From: Naegleria gruberi
Lineage: Eukaryota
Assembly: GCA_000004985.1 (NCBI GenBank)
Contig: GG738846.1
Length of the DNA stretch: 64,000 bases
Strand: one strand, 5' to 3'
Numbering within the stretch: position 1 is the first letter of the stretch; each line of letters starts with the position of its first letter. Under the pieces are notes generated by a model, which ran no database searches, was not told the DNA's origin, and saw only the letters and a list, made by a program, of their open reading frames with translations. A program made the translations under genes and the position numbers. Positions 32,871 through 39,393 of the stretch are shown piece after piece.

Positions 32871-33857
32871 ATGTCTCACTATTTGCCAACCACACTCTCA
32901 ACATATGTTCTGGCAACTAATACAGCCTTGTTCAGTTTTATTTTACTCCTGTTAATATCATGTTTTTTATTATTGTGGATAACAAGTAGAGTGAAAGGAA
33001 ATAAGAATCAATTAAATAATAATTTGATGATTGCACTACATGTTTCTGTGACTGTAAAATTATGTAATATCGGAATGATTTGCCTTTTTTTATTAATAAT
33101 ACAATCAGCTGTATTTATTTGGTATGGATGGATGTTTGATCAAAGTGGCCAATATCAAATTGTTCACTTGTCAGGATCAATAATTTTAGTTATTTTGGAT
33201 TATTTATTTCAGGTTGCATTGACATTGTTCGTATCAACTCTATCTTTTGAATGTATTAGGAAAGCTTGCAAAGTTTCAATTATCAAATATCATGGAAAAT
33301 GGTTTTCAATTTTATGTTCAATTTTAATATTTGTCACTATTTTCACACCCTTTTTTGCTTATATTGTCACACCTATAGCTTTTATTTTACACCAATTTTG
33401 TTCATTTGTTTCACCAGGAATTGTGGAAAGTGCTACCTGGTCTTCAAATCTAGTACATGCGTCAGTGATAGGATGGTGCTCAATCACAATGATTGGATTT
33501 GGATTAAAATTGAGGAATGAAAATAATCATCTTGTTGATCATTTAGATAATGATTTTAATGAAAACGAAACTCAAGTTTCATTGAAATCAAAACAAGCTG
33601 GAAATTTATTTATTTTCATATCAATTGCATTATTGTTATATTGTTTAATATTCCTCATCCAAAATTCATTTTTGCAAATACCACAAATCTATTCCAGAGA
33701 ATTGAGTAGTTTGAGCTCGAACACAACCTCTGTAAATATTCATTTGTGGTTGAACATTATACCTCAATTCTATAATCCTATCTTGTTCCTAGTTTTTGGA
33801 CTTTGTCTTGGAAAATTCAACAGCGTTAGAGATCTAGATATGTACATTAATCAATAA
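32871..33857 (+). CDS. Hypothetical polytopic (about 7-TM) membrane protein, 328 aa.
   Basis: ATG at 32871. Seven hydrophobic segments of 19-23 residues. Family not recognised. Confidence 0.4.
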   Translation: MSHYLPTTLSTYVLATNTALFSFILLLLISCFLLLWITSRVKGNKNQLNNNLMIALHVSVTVKLCNIGMICLFLLIIQSAVFIWYGWMFDQSGQYQIVHLSGSIILVILDYLFQVALTLFVSTLSFECIRKACKVSIIKYHGKWFSILCSILIFVTIFTPFFAYIVTPIAFILHQFCSFVSPGIVESATWSSNLVHASVIGWCSITMIGFGLKLRNENNHLVDHLDNDFNENETQVSLKSKQAGNLFIFISIALLLYCLIFLIQNSFLQIPQIYSRELSSLSSNTTSVNIHLWLNIIPQFYNPILFLVFGLCLGKFNSVRDLDMYINQ

Positions 33858-33868
33858 ATTATTATTAT

Positions 33869-36800
33869 TTAATTATCTGAAGAACTACAAATTGGACAAG
33901 CCACAACTCCGTTATTATTTGTAAAACATCCCTTATGGAAAACAAGTTTACATGATTGACACTTGATAACCTGGCTAATGTTAAAGTCATAAATTGGACC
34001 TGTTGCACAAGAAGCACATAAATTCTTTGCCTTTGTTTGACATAATCCACACTGATTAATTATGTGTTCACTTAAAATATGGAATAGTTTGGAAAGTTTT
34101 TGTAAAAATGGAGAATCAACTTGTTTCATGTTCAATTCTTCTAAATTCTTAATACTATACATTTCAGTATCGGTCAGGTAGTGTAATCTGTGTTGTAAAT
34201 TATGTTGTTTGATTAAATTGTCTTTCATTGGACATCTGGAAACATATTCCCATTGGATGATTAATCTCTTTCTGATCATTCTGGCTGCTCCAAGATTTTG
34301 AATTTCATCAAATAATGTTGGTTTTATGGCACTGACACAAATAATTGGTTGTCTGTGAACACTTTTAAGATATTTGGAGGCTTCATCGCAAACTTTGTAT
34401 GGTTTGAAATCCCAACTACCCAATATCTTTGCTGGAATAACTTCTGTACAGGTATTGGAATGACATTTGGTACAATAGTATTTGTTTGTATAATTACAAT
34501 AACGTGGCTTTTTGAGGAATCCGTAATCTTTCCAAATCTCTCTACCACATGGACACTTATCACCTTGTAATTGAATTTGCTTTGTTTGATCTAACTTTTG
34601 AGCATTCTTAGCTTGTTCATCCTCTTCAAGAATTAATTGATAGTCAACATCATTAATGATAGACATTATATCACTACCATCTTCGGTGAGTGCCTCATCA
34701 TTGTTTTGATCGAATAACAAGTCACGATTATCCATAGCCGATAAAGTAGTTGACTTGTTAGAAATTGTTGAGGAAGGAGGTGGTACCATCTTTTCAACAA
34801 ATACGAAATCATCACTTTCTTCTCTCTTAACTGGTGTTGTTTGTGATTCCTTATCAGCTAGTGCTACAGTGTTGCTGGTTGTTGGTGGATTGGATTTAAG
34901 TGTTTCAATTTCAGCATCTTTTGTTCCTAATTGCTCATTTGCTTGTTCGAGTGATTGTTTAACAAGTTGAATTTCTTGTTTGATAATCTCATTTTCAGAT
35001 TCTCTTGTTTTGAGATTAACTTTGGTCTGTTCAAGTGATTGTTTTAGAGCTTCAATTTCTTGCTGCATTTGTGATATCTTATTTTCAAACTCAATTTGCT
35101 TGTTAGATAATTCAGAACGTTTAGATTCCAGCTCTGTTTCAATTTTTGTCCTTTGATCCATTAATTCTTTTTCCTTCTTTTTGTAAATTTGTTCTTGAAT
35201 TTCACACTTGTTAGAAATTTGAATCTCCTTCAGTTTCAATCTATCTTCTCTATATCTGACCTTTTCAGCAAGAATTGAAACATCCAATAATGAGGTTGAA
35301 TGAGGAAGAGTGTCTTCAATAATAATGTCTTTTCTTTCTGAGTATTGCATCCTTTCTAAAATGTTTTCGTATCTGTCCTTTTTGGCTTTCATTGAAATTT
35401 GTAAATCTTCAGATTTTAACAATGGATGAATATAACTCTTAAAAAAAGAATACATTTCACTGGCTGTTAATAATTTCTGGGCTGATTCAACATTACGATC
35501 AAAATCAACAATTATCACCTTTTGTTCTTGTTGTGGAGGTTGATCAGCATCATCAATTTCTGTAGCGTCTTCTTCAAATTCAGATAAAGTGTCAGAATCA
35601 GCAGACTCAGAACCAAGTAAAGAGTCAACTTCTAGATCAACCCTGTTAAGTGGAGGAGCTAATGATACATTTTCAGATAATTGAGCAATATTCGAAACAG
35701 TCAATTCAAGTTTTGGTTCTTCTATGGTTTCAATCTTGTCGGTTTGTTCCTCAAGCTGAATAGATATTACTGAATCCTTCTGTTCTTGTGTTGGAGAGAT
35801 CTTTTCCGATTCTTCTTTTGGAGGGCTTTCAACAACTGGACTAACAGTTTCGGTTGAAATTTGTATCTTAACTTCTTCCTCCTTCGATGATGTTGGAATA
35901 GCCCCTTGTTTGATTTCACTCTCAGGTTGAACAATATCTGAAGAATCATGAATTTCAGGTGTTGTTCCTCTAGACGTCTCTTCTGATATGAAATAGGATT
36001 CCATAGCTGCAATGATGGAATTTTCAGAATCATTGTCAGAGAATGAGTCATTTGTCTCTACCTTTGGAGAAAGCTCAAATGCTCTCCAGTATGGCAGCAC
36101 TTTATCAAGCTCCTTTTCGAAGATATCCTGTAAAACCTTGGCCATTCTAACCTGAGGTGATGACTCTAAATGGAACATGAACGAATTCGTAAATACGGTT
36201 TGTATATCCCTAATAAATTCATCAATATAGACATAGTGAGATTTTTCAAAGTTAGTTTTGATGATTGTAAAATCTATAGGTTTTTTGATAAACTTGGAAT
36301 AATCTCTAAATTCGGCGAGCTTTTCATTAACAGGAGAGTTGAAATGGGATGCATATTTATGGCTCATAAGAATGGAAAGAATTCGTGTCATATTATCTCT
36401 AAGTTCTGAATTGTCTCTGAGACTGGATGAAAATCTTGGAGGTGGAGTTGACAGCAGACTAATATCATTAATCTTTGAAGAGGTATTTTCTGGGGTGGAT
36501 GAAATTTCCTGAGATGATATATTTTCTTCTTTTTGAGCCAGAATATCTATTGGTTTGGATTGTTCTACTTGTTGAGTTTGAATTGAAGGAGGTATTATTT
36601 CTTCAATGAATTGGTTTTCTTGAATTTCCTGATTAATATTAACCTCTTGTTTTGAAACCTCTTCAGTTGATTCTAAAATATCGTTATTCTCCTCTATAGA
36701 AGAGATATTCTCAATAGGAGTATCCTTAGGAGTTTCAATATTTTCTATAGATATTGTGTTAGAAATAGTAGGCTGTTGTTCCTCTGATTTTTCCTCTAAT

Positions 36801-37974
36801 TTTTCATTTACCTGCTGTTCAGCAATTGCTGTAGGAATGGTAGATGAATCATCATCGACCCTAGCATCTTGTTCAGTAGGATGCGTAACAACAACCTGCT
36901 CATCTTTAGAGATTTTTTCAATAGTTTTTTCCAGTTTTTCTTGGCCAACACTGTTTGATACTTCTTGATTTGATTGAGTGATCATACTCGATTCTAACTG
37001 GTTCGATTGAACATTCTCGGATTGATTAGGCACTGATGAGAAATCATCTAGTAAATCAACTGGATCTTCCCTTATGACTTTTCTTTCAATTGTTGTGGTG
37101 GAAACTGTTCCAAAATCCTTTTCAACACTGGTGTTGGTTGTAGGCGTAATAGGTGTTGGAGTACTTGGTAGCGATTGTTTAAAGCTTGTACTCTTATCAC
37201 TTTCACTGGTAGCACTTGTTGGAGTTAAATCCTCCGATCCAATACTGCTACTTGTTGCAGTGTTTGTATCAATTGTTTTTTTATCCAATTTAGTCTTCTT
37301 TTTCTTTTCAGTTTTTTCAGGTTTAACCTTCTTTTCAGTTTTCTTTTTTTTACGAGTTGATGTCACAACAATTTCATCCTCTTCCATGTTGGTTATTTCC
37401 TTGCTTTTTTTTGTTTTAAATATCCAAATGGATTTGAAAAGGAAACTTACAAATTAAAGTTAATTGTTGAAAGAGGAGATACTAAACTCTTTAAAAATAA
37501 TATTTCCTCATCCATAAAGAATAAATCATTCACTCGCTCATTGTAAAATTTCTCTTTTGGTATCATTGAAAATAGGTCAACCAAATCAATTAATATTTTC
37601 TCATTCAAAGTTAATTTAATAATAGAACTATCATGTGACTCAAAATTTTGTAATTGTTTAACTTTTGATTTTAAATCTGATTTGTCAATGCTGAACGTCT
37701 TGTTCAGAGGAAATTGAGAAAAATTTGTATAAATATATCGGAAAATGTCTTGTAAAGTAATGGATGCCACCAATCCATCGGAAAATAAACGATGTAAAGT
37801 TTCACTATTGATGATGTTTAAATTAATAATAATTTAGTTGACATGTGTTTCAGCAGCAACCTACCATAATTCATTGGCTCCTTTAGACTCTTCATCAATT
37901 TCTGGCAATGTTAATGAGGCTTGAAATATTGTCTTGATGGCCATCTTGACCATCTGCAGTCGCTCCGAAAACAT
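33869..37974 (-). CDS. Rubicon-family protein of about 1330 aa. Order: N-terminal RUN-like domain, atypical bromodomain, acidic/coiled-coil region, C-terminal Rubicon-homology (RH) zinc-binding domain. Three exons, about 37865..37974, 37451..37804 and 33869..37403; introns of 60 and 47 nt.
   Basis: RH domain CPCGREIWKDYGF..YCNYTNKYYCTKCHSNTCTEVIPAKILGSWDFKPYKV...CGLCQTKAKNLCASCATGPIYDFN...CQSCKLVFHKGCF...CPIC is colinear with Rubicon (CAGCGEKIW..YCHYTGQYFCSGCH..VIPARVLHKWDF...CELCQGKGFICEFC..IFPF..FHKQCF..CPRC). Bromodomain-like ILSILMSHKYASHFNSPVN...DYSKFIKKPIDFTIIK...FIRDIQTVFTNSFMFH matches the GCN5 bromodomain. The 5' exons are joined by GTAGGT/GTAAGT donors in frame (NEL|CETLHRLFSDGL...; NFNL->FKEITNMEED). 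Confidence 0.6.
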
Positions 37975-38078: not shown

Positions 38079-39393
38079 CTACAATTCTGAATAGAGTGAT
38101 TCTAATCCTTGGCCTAATTCCCAAATCATCACACCTGCCAATCTCTTCTCCTTTACAAAATCAACTCTTGACTTGATGGACTCAAGAGTTGGGTAGGCCA
38201 CCAATGTGATTTTATCAGGTTGTACAAACTCAAAAATGTGCTCTCTGGCCTCACTATCCCAAATTATACTATGAAGTGTTTGTGTATTATTCAATAATTC
38301 TTTCAATTTGGAACCAAGAATATGATCCAATTTAGTTTGTTTTGGTGTAAGATATTTTGAAATGAGGACTGTAGCTTCTTCAGTGGAATCCTTAATTAAA
38401 TCTGATAATAGAGAATTGGTATTTTCCATTTCAATTTGAATGCCATAAAAATTTAAGCCAACAAATAACTTTTGAGCGATATTGGTGTTTGAGCCACTCA
38501 ATGTAAAATAATTAACTGTTTGGTCAATAAATCCCTCAAGAGGACCATTGAAAATATACTTTTGAGAAGTGTCCTTAGAGCTCATATGAGAGAAATAATC
38601 ATAGGTCATTAATAAAAATCCATCAACATATGGTTCAATTTCAATTAAATGTTCAACTCTGAACAATGCTGAAAACTTTTGTTCATTTCTCGTTGGGGGA
38701 ACAAGAGATGGAACAACCAAATGAATTTCTCCCTTTTTGTTCAAGCTGTTTACCTTTTCCCTTAAAGATTTCATAAAATCTACAATAATGTGTTTAATTT
38801 GATCCATAGGTAAAAATCCAACCTCTACAACAATTCCATCCAAGTCGTAGGCTCTTATGAGTTGTCCTATTTTATCAATAATTGGCTGATGTAAATTCTT
38901 GTTGAATTTTGGTTGACCATAAAAATATCTAACTTGTTCTTGACCCCAATGGGAATAATCGAATTGAACTCTTGGTAAAATCTTGGCTAAGATTCATGAA
39001 TTATTATCATTCAAAATTCATTAAATAATTACCTCCAATATTTTGTTTTTTCACTTGTTTAATCCAATTCATGTCCACATCTTGAATTCCTGTAATTTGA
39101 AATGGAGAGTTTGGTTTTTGTTGGGATGGTCGAATTTGTAACCAAACAGGACTAATTAATTTAACTTTTTCATGTGTTTTGGCAACATTATATCCATTGC
39201 TATTCCATGGTGTGACAAAACCTAACACTTTATTTGATCTAAGAGAGGCGCTACTGCCAGTCTCGGAAAGTAATTTTTCAATAACTTGTTCCTTTTCATT
39301 TTCCGATAATTTTCTCAAGGTACTTTGAATACTGCTGCTACTAGTGATCAAAAACAAGATGAGAAATAATGTAAATAAAAGGGATGTTTGCAT
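38079..39393 (-). CDS. CHID1: Chitinase domain-containing protein 1 (CHID1)-like GH18-fold protein with signal peptide. Two exons, about 39034..39393 and 38079..38987; GTAATT...AATCTTAG intron of about 46 nt.
   Basis: LGFVTPWNSNGYNVAKTHEKVKLISPVWLQI matches human CHID1 [59 protein letters not shown] matches GLHDVDQGWMRAV..HIVPRLLFEDWT. LDGIVVEV..., MTYDY and VMIWELGQGL match FDGFVVEV, LMTYDY and VSIWELGQGL. Confidence 0.65.

What the first reader, a model, noticed from the sequence alone, without database searches (positions are those of the whole stretch)
33869..37974. Rubicon-family protein carrying an embedded, atypical bromodomain
The C-terminal roughly 230 aa is an unmistakable Rubicon-homology zinc-binding domain, the module that binds Rab7 in Rubicon/PLEKHM1/DEF8. 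Two short 5' exons encode a RUN-like N-terminus (LCETLHRLFSDGL...), as in Rubicon itself. Between them sits a roughly 110-aa segment that aligns well with bromodomains (SHKYASHF.SPV...DY..FIKKPIDF..I......Y....FIRDIQTVFTNSFMFH). However, the acetyl-lysine-anchoring Asn of the YN motif is replaced by His (FH). I am not aware of a bromodomain in characterised Rubicon-family proteins. A degenerate or reader-dead bromodomain in an autophagy/endolysosomal regulator would be a new domain combination.
Basis: partly seen in the sequence, partly recalled or inferred. Interest (0 to 1): 0.65.

Follow-up and report, generated by a model that had tools for sequence, protein, structure and literature searches.

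The report
Naegleria Rubicon-like protein with a bromodomain
This is a real Naegleria gruberi gene for a Rubicon-type membrane-trafficking scaffold that also carries one well-conserved bromodomain, in which the key acetyl-lysine-binding asparagine is a histidine; I found this combination only in Naegleria and one close environmental relative.

Summary
The window is Naegleria gruberi. A single 1172-codon ORF (33869..37387, minus strand) contains a Pfam Rubicon-homology (RH) domain (E 1e-49) and a Pfam bromodomain (E 1e-15).

An AlphaFold model of the bromodomain (pLDDT 83) superposes on BPTF, BRD4 and GCN5 bromodomains. The Kac-anchoring Asn (BRD4 N140) is His in N. gruberi, N. fowleri, N. lovaniensis and one environmental relative. 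The other pocket residues I mapped (the F83, Y97, N135 and Y139 equivalents) are kept. dN/dS for the domain is 0.05, as low as for the RH domain, so it is not decaying.

The two 5' exons are supported. Their intron positions and phases match those of the N. fowleri and N. lovaniensis gene models exactly. RUN identity is borderline (Pfam 21.8 bits against a cut-off of 22; hhalign P 3e-5 with a widened profile).

Among the best 150 of 8663 hits in 1.84 billion representative proteins, only the Naegleria proteins combine a bromodomain with RH. A fourth orthologue appears there as a truncated model. Heterolobosean relatives (Acrasis, Percolomonas) lack the bromodomain. No paper on this combination was found.

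Verdict: a new variant of a known kind. Function is inferred: a Rab7-effector scaffold with a built-in, atypical acyl-lysine reader.

The parts
37865..37974 (-). Exon 1 (110 nt, aa 1-36 plus two bases of codon 37), with the start codon at 37972-37974.
   Evidence: Sequence and splice reconstruction. Exon 1 is also 110 nt, ending in phase 2, in N. fowleri and N. lovaniensis.
37805..37864 (-). Intron 1 (60 nt, GTAGGT...AG).
   Evidence: The position and phase are the same as intron 1 of the N. fowleri and N. lovaniensis models.
37451..37804 (-). Exon 2 (354 nt). It encodes most of the RUN-like region (LCETLHRLFSDGL ... TINFN).
   Evidence: It equals exons 2 and 3 (252 + 102 nt) of the N. fowleri and N. 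lovaniensis models, so N. gruberi lacks their middle intron.
37404..37450 (-). Intron 2 (47 nt, GTAAGT...AG).
   Evidence: It lies after CDS nt 464, phase 2, like the last intron of N. fowleri and N. lovaniensis. The same GTAAGT follows '...TINFA' in the environmental contig L003.
33869..37403 (-). Exon 3 (3535 nt, aa 155-1332 plus stop). It holds the polybasic stretch, linkers, bromodomain, conserved middle region, coiled coil and RH domain.
   Evidence: The ORF 33869..37387 is uninterrupted. It is 100% identical to the public N. gruberi 1172-aa 'bromodomain-containing protein'.
37451..37872 (-). RUN-like domain (aa 35-155; the span includes intron 1).
   Evidence: Pfam RUN scores 21.8 bits, E 2.2e-4, covering profile positions 1-127 of 131, against a cut-off of 22. 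RUN matches all three orthologues at E <= 1 and is the top family for N. gruberi. hhalign against RUN domains of other RH proteins gives P 0.0018 alone and P 3e-5 (probability 73.5%) when Percolomonas-type N-termini are added. 59% of columns are invariant among three species.
37274..37354 (-). Polybasic stretch RKKKKTEKKVKPEKTEKKKKTKLDKKT (aa 172-198).
   Evidence: A Lys run follows 'IVVTSTR' in all four orthologues. Its function (nuclear localisation signal or membrane-binding patch) was not tested.
36068..36415 (-). Bromodomain fold (aa 485-600; the Pfam core is aa 495-577, 36137..36385).
   Evidence: Pfam E 1e-15. BRD4 BD1 is the best solved relative, at about 52 bits and E 2e-13 to 1e-12 for single-domain chains. 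The AF2 model has pLDDT 83 with helices Z, A, B and C. Foldseek top hits are all bromodomains. dN/dS is 0.054.
36170..36172 (-). Codon for His566, the residue in place of the acetyl-lysine-anchoring Asn (BRD4 N140).
   Evidence: Ungapped alignment to BRD4 BD1. In the model the His directly follows helix B, as N140 does. It is invariant in four orthologues. Among 419 bromodomains from the best library hits this column is N in 371 and H in 17.
35213..35656 (-). Conserved middle region (aa 738-885): an acidic motif LNRVDxEVDSLL...DSDTLSEFEEDAxEI, then a helical block ...SEMYSFFKSY...KKDRYENILER...ILAEKVRYREDRLKLKE.
   Evidence: 53-56% of columns are invariant, against 11-21% in the linkers. dN/dS is 0.09. 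The end motif recurs in other heterolobosean-type RH proteins such as P0007. There is no Pfam match.
34823..35212 (-). Probable coiled coil (aa 886-1015, rich in E/K/Q/L).
   Evidence: Read from the sequence. No coiled-coil predictor was run. It is variable in length and sequence among the species.
34790..34822 (-). LIR-like motif EESDDFVFVEK (aa 1016-1026): acidic residues followed by F-x-x-V/I.
   Evidence: It is conserved as DEFILIEK in N. fowleri and N. lovaniensis and as DEFVLIEK in L003. This is a motif match only; ATG8 binding was not tested.
33881..34504 (-). Rubicon-homology (RH) zinc-cluster domain (aa 1122-1329).
   Evidence: Pfam RH_dom scores 169.5 bits against a cut-off of 28.1. 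Human Rubicon RH (6WCW) matches at E 3e-22. The Cys/His aligned with Rubicon C721, C739, C747, C750, H751, C826, H842, H877, C881, C884, C891, C894, C912, C915, H920, C923, C929 and C932 are all conserved. 71% of columns are invariant and dN/dS is 0.043.

Best explanation
This is one real three-exon gene of Naegleria gruberi. It encodes a 1332-aa scaffold of the RH-domain family, to which Rubicon, PLEKHM1, Pacer and DEF8 belong.

From N- to C-terminus it has:
- a divergent RUN domain;
- a polybasic stretch;
- a long disordered linker;
- a single BET-like bromodomain whose Kac-anchoring Asn is His;
- a conserved acidic and helical block;
- a coiled coil;
- an LIR-like motif;
- a C-terminal four-zinc-cluster RH domain.

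Shown here: the domain identities, the gene structure, the conservation of the whole layout in four Naegleria-clade genomes, and strong purifying selection on the bromodomain.

Inferred: the RH domain docks the protein on a GTP-bound Rab7-type GTPase on late endosomes, phagosomes or autophagosomes. The RUN domain and coiled coil hold partner proteins. The bromodomain adds a ligand pocket that most likely still recognises an acyl-lysine or similar mark on a non-histone partner, with His566 as the hydrogen-bond donor. This would tie trafficking or autophagosome maturation to protein acetylation.

The bromodomain was probably copied from a BET-like domain into an ancestral RUN...RH gene after the Naegleria lineage split from Acrasis and Percolomonas. 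The timing rests on the known branching of these taxa; I built no tree.
For: - **Same ORF.** RH and bromodomain lie in one ORF.
- **Bromodomain fold.** Confirmed by the AF2 model and Foldseek.
- **RH domain.** Homologous to the human Rubicon RH structure, with the zinc ligands kept.
- **Pocket residues.** The equivalents of F83, P86, V87, Y97, P104, D106, Y119, D128, N135 and Y139 (F or Y) are kept. Only N140 (to H) and the W and P of the WPF shelf differ (alignment; offset worked out).
- **Selection.** dN/dS between N. fowleri and N. lovaniensis is 0.054 for the bromodomain, 0.043 for RH and about 0.31 for the linkers.
- **Conserved layout.** The same layout, the same His and the same flanking genes occur in N. 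fowleri and N. lovaniensis. The environmental contig L003 has the same layout and His.
- **Intron positions.** Conserved across species.
- **Relatives without a bromodomain.** Acrasis kona and Percolomonas relatives have RH, and Percolomonas also a RUN-like N-terminus, but no bromodomain.
- **Isolated subfamily.** The orthologues' bromodomains score 167-252 bits against the profile. The nearest outsiders score at most 65 bits and are canonical CYxYN BET-like domains.
- **Precedents.** Acetylated Beclin 1 recruits human Rubicon (PMC4455096). Cytoplasmic bromodomain proteins exist in another discoban, T. cruzi TcBDF1 and TcBDF3 (PMC11473290).
Against: - No experiment or transcript data exist for this gene.
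- Only 2 of the 5 mutated hydrophobic-pocket residues of human Rubicon's Rab7 interface are identical (L883, K887). T825 is R, A886 is T and F889 is N.
- RUN falls 0.2 bits below Pfam's cut-off. Its AF2 model was unusable (pLDDT 44), and a profile search of PDB found no RUN structure.
- His is not among the replacements (Thr, Tyr) that Filippakopoulos et al. 2012 (PMC3326523) suggested could substitute as hydrogen-bond donors.
- The W and P of the WPF shelf are lost.
- The polybasic stretch could be a nuclear localisation signal.
Confidence: 0.7

Rival explanations
1. The bromodomain is reader-dead. It keeps the fold but no longer binds acyl-lysine, and it serves as a structural or protein-protein interaction module within an otherwise ordinary RH-family scaffold.
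For: The anchoring Asn is His in all four orthologues. The WPF shelf is SHF. Alanine mutants of this Asn abolish acetyl-peptide binding by BRD4, and human MLL, with Asp at this position, is thought either not to bind Kac or to use a different mechanism (PMC3326523).
Against: His can donate a hydrogen bond. The other pocket residues (the Y97, N135, Y139, F83 and P86-V87 equivalents) are conserved. dN/dS of 0.054 shows the surface is constrained, though this cannot tell which function is kept. His recurs at this column in 13 other bromodomains of multi-bromodomain proteins, including proteins from Allomyces, Plasmodiophora and Spongospora. That suggests a tolerated variant rather than a dead end.
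Confidence: 0.3
2. The protein is a nuclear chromatin factor. The bromodomain and the polybasic signal define its function, and the RH zinc clusters act as generic zinc fingers rather than as a Rab7-binding module.
For: Most bromodomain proteins are nuclear (PMC11304739 abstract). A KKKK-rich stretch is conserved. Three of the five Rab7-pocket residues differ from human Rubicon.
Against: The RH domain is the best-conserved part of the protein (71% invariant columns, dN/dS 0.043). It matches the whole RH profile, 203 of 206 positions. The layout RUN ... coiled coil ... RH is that of cytoplasmic Rab7 effectors. No chromatin-type domain other than the bromodomain is present.
Confidence: 0.1
3. 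The RUN-like exons belong to a separate small upstream gene, and the real protein is the annotated 1172-aa product that starts at Met161.
For: The public N. gruberi model starts at that Met. Left unspliced, exon 2 ends in a stop codon inside the GTAAGT donor. No transcript evidence was available here.
Against: Only 47-54 nt separate the two parts in three species, too little for a terminator plus a promoter. The GT..AG boundaries at identical CDS positions and phase restore the frame in N. gruberi, N. fowleri and N. lovaniensis, despite different and unconserved intron lengths. Both other species' models join the parts. Met161 of N. gruberi is Leu in the other two species. RUN plus RH is a common layout among the family members I scanned.
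Confidence: 0.1

Closest known systems
Human Rubicon (RUBCN; RH domain structure 6WCW)
   Same: The C-terminal RH domain is homologous (E 3e-22) and the zinc-ligand Cys/His are conserved. The overall order, N-terminal RUN-type domain, long disordered middle, coiled coil and C-terminal RH, is the same.
   Different: Human Rubicon is not known to have a bromodomain (my own knowledge); in this protein, Pfam finds no families other than RUN, Bromodomain and RH. Rab7-pocket residues T825, A886 and F889 differ. No Rubicon-specific middle region was detected. Orthology to metazoan Rubicon was not tested by phylogeny. Bhargava et al. (PMC7382272) describe the Rubicon class as metazoan.
PLEKHM1, DEF8 and Pacer (other RH-domain proteins)
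   Same: They share the RH domain. PLEKHM1-like library hits also begin with RUN (P0128: RUN-PH-RH; P0107: RUN-C1-RH). From my own knowledge, PLEKHM1 has an LIR between its PH domains and the RH region; here an LIR-like motif lies about 100 aa upstream of RH.
   Different: This protein has no PH, C1 or PX domain. None of the 20 RH-domain hits I scanned with Pfam has a bromodomain.
Heterolobosean RH proteins: Acrasis kona KAL0478663.1 / KAL0477971.1 and Percolomonas sp. WS EP00818_P009042
   Same: Apart from the Naegleria orthologues, these are among the closest RH relatives in 1.84 billion representatives, at 220-295 bits. The Percolomonas protein has a comparable N-terminus, a basic stretch and a long linker.
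   Different: They have no bromodomain. This dates the insertion to the Naegleria lineage.
BRD4 BD1 / BET-type bromodomains
   Same: BRD4 is the best solved sequence relative: about 52 bits and E 2e-13 to 1e-12 for single BD1 chains, aligned without gaps over 102-103 residues. Foldseek lists about 30% identity for BRD4 BD1 structures. The fold is the same. The nearest library bromodomains are BET-like CYxYN domains.
   Different: There is one bromodomain rather than a tandem pair, and no ET domain. N140 is His, and the WPF shelf is SHF. The domain sits in a trafficking scaffold, not in a chromatin protein.
Trypanosoma cruzi TcBDF3 and TcBDF1 (cytoplasmic bromodomain factors)
   Same: They set a precedent, in another discoban, for a divergent single bromodomain working outside the nucleus on a non-histone acetyl mark, acetylated alpha-tubulin (PMC11473290).
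   Different: They have no RH or RUN domain. They are not orthologous. This is a functional analogy only.

Membership tests
RH-domain family (Pfam PF13901; Rubicon, PLEKHM1, Pacer, DEF8) | Full-length match to the RH_dom profile above the curated cut-off. | tested here: met
   169.5 bits against a cut-off of 28.1, covering profile positions 1-203 of 206.
RH-domain family (Pfam PF13901; Rubicon, PLEKHM1, Pacer, DEF8) | Conserved Cys/His that build the zinc clusters (nine Cys and one His conserved among Rubicon, PLEKHM1 and Pacer; PMC7382272). | tested here: met
   In the alignment to 6WCW, residues aligned with C721, C739, C747, C750, H751, C826, H842, H877, C881, C884, C891, C894, C912, C915, H920, C923, C929 and C932 are identical. 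They are also invariant in three species.
RH-domain family (Pfam PF13901; Rubicon, PLEKHM1, Pacer, DEF8) | Rab7 switch-II pocket residues of human Rubicon (T825, L883, A886, K887, F889). | tested here: inconclusive
   L883 and K887 are identical. T825 is R, A886 is T and F889 is N. The human A886D mutant had no effect. The sequence of Naegleria Rab7 was not examined.
RH-domain family (Pfam PF13901; Rubicon, PLEKHM1, Pacer, DEF8) | GTP-dependent binding to Rab7. | not testable with these tools
   This needs a pull-down or a co-localisation experiment.
Rubicon proper (RUBCN orthologue) | N-terminal RUN domain. | tested here: inconclusive
   Pfam RUN scores 21.8 bits against a cut-off of 22, E 2.2e-4, over nearly the full profile. 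hhalign gives P 0.0018 alone and P 3e-5 (probability 73.5%) with a widened profile. The AF2 model was unusable and there was no PDB hit.
Rubicon proper (RUBCN orthologue) | Middle region that binds the Beclin 1-VPS34 (PI3K) complex. | not tested
   A conserved helical block and a probable coiled coil are present. No homology to the Rubicon middle region was detected by Pfam. Binding cannot be tested here.
Rubicon proper (RUBCN orthologue) | Orthology by phylogeny of the RH domain. | not tested
   No tree was built. The nearest relatives are heterolobosean-type proteins, not metazoan Rubicon.
Bromodomain (Pfam PF00439) | Profile match above the curated cut-off. | tested here: met
   57.9 bits against a cut-off of 21.7, covering profile positions 3-83 of 84. 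The environmental orthologue scores 66.6 bits.
Bromodomain (Pfam PF00439) | Four-helix bundle (helices Z, A, B, C) with ZA and BC loops. | tested here: met
   The AF2 model has pLDDT 83 and helices at 15-30, 61-69, 76-93 and 99-118. Foldseek gives E about 1e-7 and TM 0.7-0.87 to BPTF, BRD4, GCN5, PCAF and CBP bromodomains. Handedness was not checked separately.
Bromodomain (Pfam PF00439) | Kac-anchoring Asn at the start of the BC loop (BRD4 N140). | tested here: not met
   It is His566 in N. gruberi and His in all four orthologues. This does not exclude membership of the fold family: the column is not Asn in 41 of 419 sampled bromodomains, with 7 more gapped there. It does mark the domain as atypical.
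Bromodomain (Pfam PF00439) | Other conserved pocket and core residues (the BRD4 F83, P86-V87, Y97, P104-x-D106, Y119, D128, N135 and Y139 equivalents). | tested here: met
   All are present in the ungapped alignment to BRD4 BD1. Y139 is F in N. gruberi and Y in the others.
Bromodomain (Pfam PF00439) | Binding of acetyl-lysine. | not testable with these tools
   This needs peptide arrays or ITC with the recombinant domain.
BET family | Tandem bromodomains plus an ET domain. | tested here: not met
   There is a single bromodomain and no ET domain. It resembles BET bromodomains in sequence only.

The most novel reading that the evidence does not exclude
The protein is an acetylation-gated Rab7 effector. 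Its His-type bromodomain reads an acyl-lysine mark on a cytoplasmic trafficking or autophagy partner, for example a Beclin 1/VPS34-complex subunit, tubulin or a Rab. Autophagosome or phagosome maturation in Naegleria would then be wired directly to the cell's acetylation (acetyl-CoA) state. In human cells this link exists only indirectly, through the preference of Rubicon for acetylated Beclin 1. As far as I could find, this would be the first bromodomain built into membrane-trafficking machinery, and a natural example of a His-anchored acyl-lysine pocket.
Probability: 0.3. Interest if true: 0.75.

Novelty: new variant of a known kind. Interest (0 to 1): 0.5.

Why it matters
Bromodomains are treated almost entirely as chromatin readers, and RH-domain proteins as Rab7-bound regulators of late endosome and autophagosome traffic. 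A conserved, selected fusion of the two says that in at least one eukaryotic lineage lysine acylation is probably read directly at the endolysosomal system.

It offers a natural test of how Rubicon-type proteins sense acetylated partners. In human cells acetylated Beclin 1 recruits Rubicon (PMC4455096), and from my own knowledge human Rubicon has no acetyl-lysine reader domain.

It also offers a test of whether a His can replace the canonical Asn in an acyl-lysine pocket. The orthologue exists in the pathogen N. fowleri. A divergent bromodomain pocket there could be of pharmacological interest, by analogy with the T. cruzi bromodomain work.

On a practical level, the public N. gruberi gene model appears to lack its first 160 codons.

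Tried and rejected
1. **Domain-only searches with the search for homologous proteins.** Queries with the RH domain alone and the bromodomain alone returned nothing, not even the N. gruberi protein itself. These are false negatives of the word index and not evidence of absence.
2. **AF2 of the RUN-like N-terminus.** It gave pLDDT 44.5, so no fold search was attempted with it.
3. **PDB profile search for RUN.** A profile of the three N-termini found no RUN structure; the best E was 0.19, to arenavirus glycoproteins, which is chance.
4. **Metagenome scans.** Two scans of metagenome contigs for further bromodomain orthologues found none.
5. **afdb50 fold library.** It was not available.
6. **Exact-sequence look-up of the N. 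gruberi protein.** No contig was found.
7. **A wrong inference, corrected.** I first took a single tblastn alignment (N. fowleri aa 122-1230) to mean that half of the RUN region lies in the same exon as the bromodomain. This was wrong. The alignment read through a 54-nt intron that contains a stop codon. The exon model rests instead on conserved intron position and phase.
8. **Gene-fusion or assembly artefact.** Rejected, because both strong domains lie in one ORF in four independent assemblies.
9. **Literature searches.** 'Rubicon homology' with bromodomain, and Rubicon with Naegleria, gave zero papers. Naegleria with bromodomain gave nothing relevant.

Full report
**What is there.** The window is AT-rich (about 32% GC) and comes from Naegleria gruberi. 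The ORF 33869..37387 on the minus strand (1172 codons) is 100% identical to the public N. gruberi entry named only 'bromodomain-containing protein'. Pfam finds two strong domains in this single ORF. One is the Rubicon-homology domain RH_dom (169.5 bits, E 1e-49, cut-off 28.1). The other is Bromodomain (57.9 bits, E 1e-15, cut-off 21.7). Because both lie in one uninterrupted reading frame, the combination cannot be a gene-model or assembly artefact.

**Gene model.** This gives a 3999-nt CDS and a 1332-aa protein.
- The annotated orthologues of N. fowleri (1230 aa) and N. lovaniensis (1292 aa) contain the same N-terminus joined to the rest.
- I reconstructed their exon maps. Both have introns after CDS nt 110, 362 and 464, all in phase 2.
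N. gruberi simply lacks the middle intron.
- An environmental contig (L003, ENA, 3431 nt, 39% GC) also shows a GTAAGT directly after '...TINFA'.
- The flanking genes are conserved in all three species: a GH18 gene upstream and a convergent gene for a roughly 328-aa protein downstream.
- I first read a tblastn alignment as showing ORF continuity in N. fowleri. That was wrong: the 54-nt intron contains a stop.

No transcript data were available, so I put the three-exon model at about 0.85-0.9. The public 1172-aa model starts at a Met that is Leu in the other two species, and it probably lacks 160 codons.

**Bromodomain.**
- Sequence: phmmer against all PDB chains gives 356 hits. The single-domain hits shown are BRD4 BD1, aligned without gaps over about 102 residues (E 2e-13 to 1e-12 for single-domain chains).
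- Structure: an AlphaFold2 model built from a seven-sequence alignment has mean pLDDT 83. Its four helices are arranged as Z, A, B and C, and the ZA loop is less confident. The best Foldseek matches in the PDB are all bromodomains (BPTF, BRD4, GCN5, PCAF, CBP, BAZ2B) at TM 0.7-0.87.
- Conserved pocket and core residues: with the ungapped offset to BRD4, the equivalents of F83, P86-V87, Y97, P104, D106, Y119, D128, N135 and Y139 (F in N. gruberi, Y elsewhere) are all present.
- Differences: N140 is His566, and the WPF shelf reads SHF. The His is invariant in the four orthologues.
- Rarity of His: among 419 bromodomains extracted from the best library hits this column is Asn in 371 and His in 17. 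Four of those 17 are the orthologues. The other 13 sit in multi-bromodomain proteins, among them proteins from Allomyces, Plasmodiophora and Spongospora. His is therefore rare but recurrent.
- Literature: Filippakopoulos et al. 2012 (PMC3326523) suggested Thr or Tyr as workable substitutes. They regarded Asp (in MLL) as either non-binding or using a different mechanism.

**Is the bromodomain decaying?** No.
- Between N. fowleri and N. lovaniensis, where synonymous sites are not saturated (dS 0.5-0.9), dN/dS is 0.054 for the bromodomain. It is 0.043 for RH, 0.09 for the middle helical block and about 0.31 for the linkers.
- Invariant columns among the three species run at 52-71% in the RUN-like, bromodomain, middle and RH blocks. 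In the linkers they run at 11-21%.

[quoted passage not shown] I set the residue numbering from the construct described in PMC7382272 and checked it on T825. All the zinc-cluster Cys/His that align are identical. Of the five Rab7-pocket residues mutated in that paper, L883 and K887 are identical, while T825 is R, A886 is T and F889 is N. Membership of the RH family is secure. Rab7 binding is inferred.

**RUN domain.** This is the weakest element.
- Pfam RUN scores 21.8 bits (E 2.2e-4, cut-off 22.0) over 127 of 131 profile positions. It matches all three orthologues and is the top family for N. gruberi.
- Local hhalign against RUN domains taken from other RH proteins in the hit list gives P 0.0018 for the Naegleria profile alone. 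It gives P 3e-5 (probability 73.5%, 114 columns) when the N-termini of the Percolomonas-type proteins are added.
- By my own reading, the aligned blocks are the classical RUN motifs (L..L...GL, LNE..L, FY, L..L..L..I.F).
- The AF2 model of this region was unusable (pLDDT 44.5), and a PDB profile search found nothing.

**Distribution.** A profile running from the bromodomain to the C-terminus was searched against 1.84 billion representative proteins. It found 8663 hits, of which the best 150 are listed.
- I rescanned the listed hits with separate local profiles. Only the Naegleria proteins contain more than one of the RUN, bromodomain, middle and RH blocks. Otherwise 87 hits have only bromodomains and 62 only RH.
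- One bromodomain-only hit (P0019, 586 aa) scored 167 bits (local profile; 182 bits in the library search). It is a truncated gene call. Its contig encodes the whole layout: the RUN end, an intron, the KKKK stretch, a bromodomain with IYH, the acidic motif, the helical block, the coiled coil and RH running to the contig end.
- Among the closest RH relatives outside the clade are Acrasis kona and Percolomonas proteins without a bromodomain.
- The nearest bromodomains outside the clade score at most 65 bits and are canonical BET-like domains.
- The simplest history is that a BET-like bromodomain was inserted into a RUN...RH gene in the Naegleria lineage, with Asn replaced by His before these species diverged.
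- Caveat: only the top 150 hits were visible, so a distant RH-plus-bromodomain protein with a combined score below about 113 bits would have been missed.

**Mechanism (inferred).** By analogy with Rubicon and PLEKHM1, the RH domain should dock on GTP-bound Rab7 at late endosomes, phagosomes or autophagosomes. The RUN domain, the conserved helical block and the coiled coil should hold partners. A conserved acidic F-x-x-V/I motif (DDFVFV, DEFILI, DEFVLI) about 100 aa before RH looks like an ATG8-interacting motif. The bromodomain most likely supplies a pocket for an acylated lysine on a non-histone partner. Two published facts make this plausible. Acetylation of Beclin 1 promotes Rubicon recruitment in human cells (PMC4455096). 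Cytoplasmic bromodomain proteins that read acetylated tubulin exist in another discoban, T. cruzi (PMC11473290). The main rivals are a reader-dead structural bromodomain, a nuclear role (bromodomain plus a possible polybasic nuclear localisation signal), and separate genes for the RUN exons.

**Novelty.** Literature searches for the combination found nothing. The domain pair is visible in the precomputed Pfam annotation of the three public entries, so it is undescribed rather than unseen. I rate it a new variant of a known kind, with moderate interest. It is a clean, conserved and selected domain fusion that links acyl-lysine reading to endolysosomal traffic. It is confined to one small clade and has no functional data.

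Noticed in passing
window 37451..37974 (minus strand): The public N. gruberi protein model (1172 aa) starts at Met161 and omits the two 5' exons, which the N. fowleri and N. lovaniensis models include. It is probably truncated by 160 codons.
   Followed up: yes
window 37451..37804; L001 3520..3580; L002 3492..3536: N. fowleri and N. lovaniensis have a third intron (61 and 45 nt, after CDS nt 362) that is absent from N. gruberi, where exon 2 is the exact sum of their exons 2 and 3 (252 + 102 nt). This is an intron loss or gain within the genus.
   Followed up: partly
window 34790..34822 (minus strand): An acidic F-x-x-V/I motif (EESDDFVFVEK) is conserved in all four orthologues about 100 aa upstream of the RH domain. 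It fits the consensus of an ATG8/LC3-interacting region.
   Followed up: partly
window 35213..35656 (minus strand): A conserved block with no Pfam match: the acidic motif LNRVDxEVDSLL...DSDTLSEFEEDA, then a helical region ending ILAEKVRYREDRLKLKE. A similar 'ERIKYREERLKL' motif occurs in another RH protein (P0007, Logan assembly), so it may be a lineage-specific partner-binding element.
   Followed up: partly
window 38079..38843 (minus strand): The upstream neighbour is a glycosyl hydrolase family 18 gene (Pfam E 1e-20). The 254-aa ORF matches only profile positions 126-316, so it is the 3' part of a longer gene with exons further upstream. The N. fowleri and N. lovaniensis orthologues are 431 and 428 aa. 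Gene order is conserved in all three species.
   Followed up: partly
window 32871..33857 (plus strand): The convergent downstream gene encodes a 328-aa hydrophobic, apparently multi-pass membrane protein with no Pfam match. Genes for 329-aa and 327-aa proteins, also convergent and without Pfam hits, sit at the same place in N. fowleri and N. lovaniensis. Only 11 nt separate the two stop codons in N. gruberi.
   Followed up: no
proteins P0028, P0032, P0039, P0059, P0079 and others (library hits): His replaces the Kac-anchoring Asn in 13 further bromodomains, each one member of a multi-bromodomain protein. Named examples are an Allomyces TAF2-like protein and proteins from Plasmodiophora and Spongospora. 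A His-type pocket may be a recurrent bromodomain variant that has not been characterised.
   Followed up: partly
L003 1880..1895 (ENA metagenome contig k141_902085): In the environmental orthologue the reading frame shifts from frame 0 to frame 1 just after the bromodomain ('...SPKVETD'). This is either a short extra intron or an assembly frameshift. The prokaryote-style gene caller split the gene into two products there.
   Followed up: no
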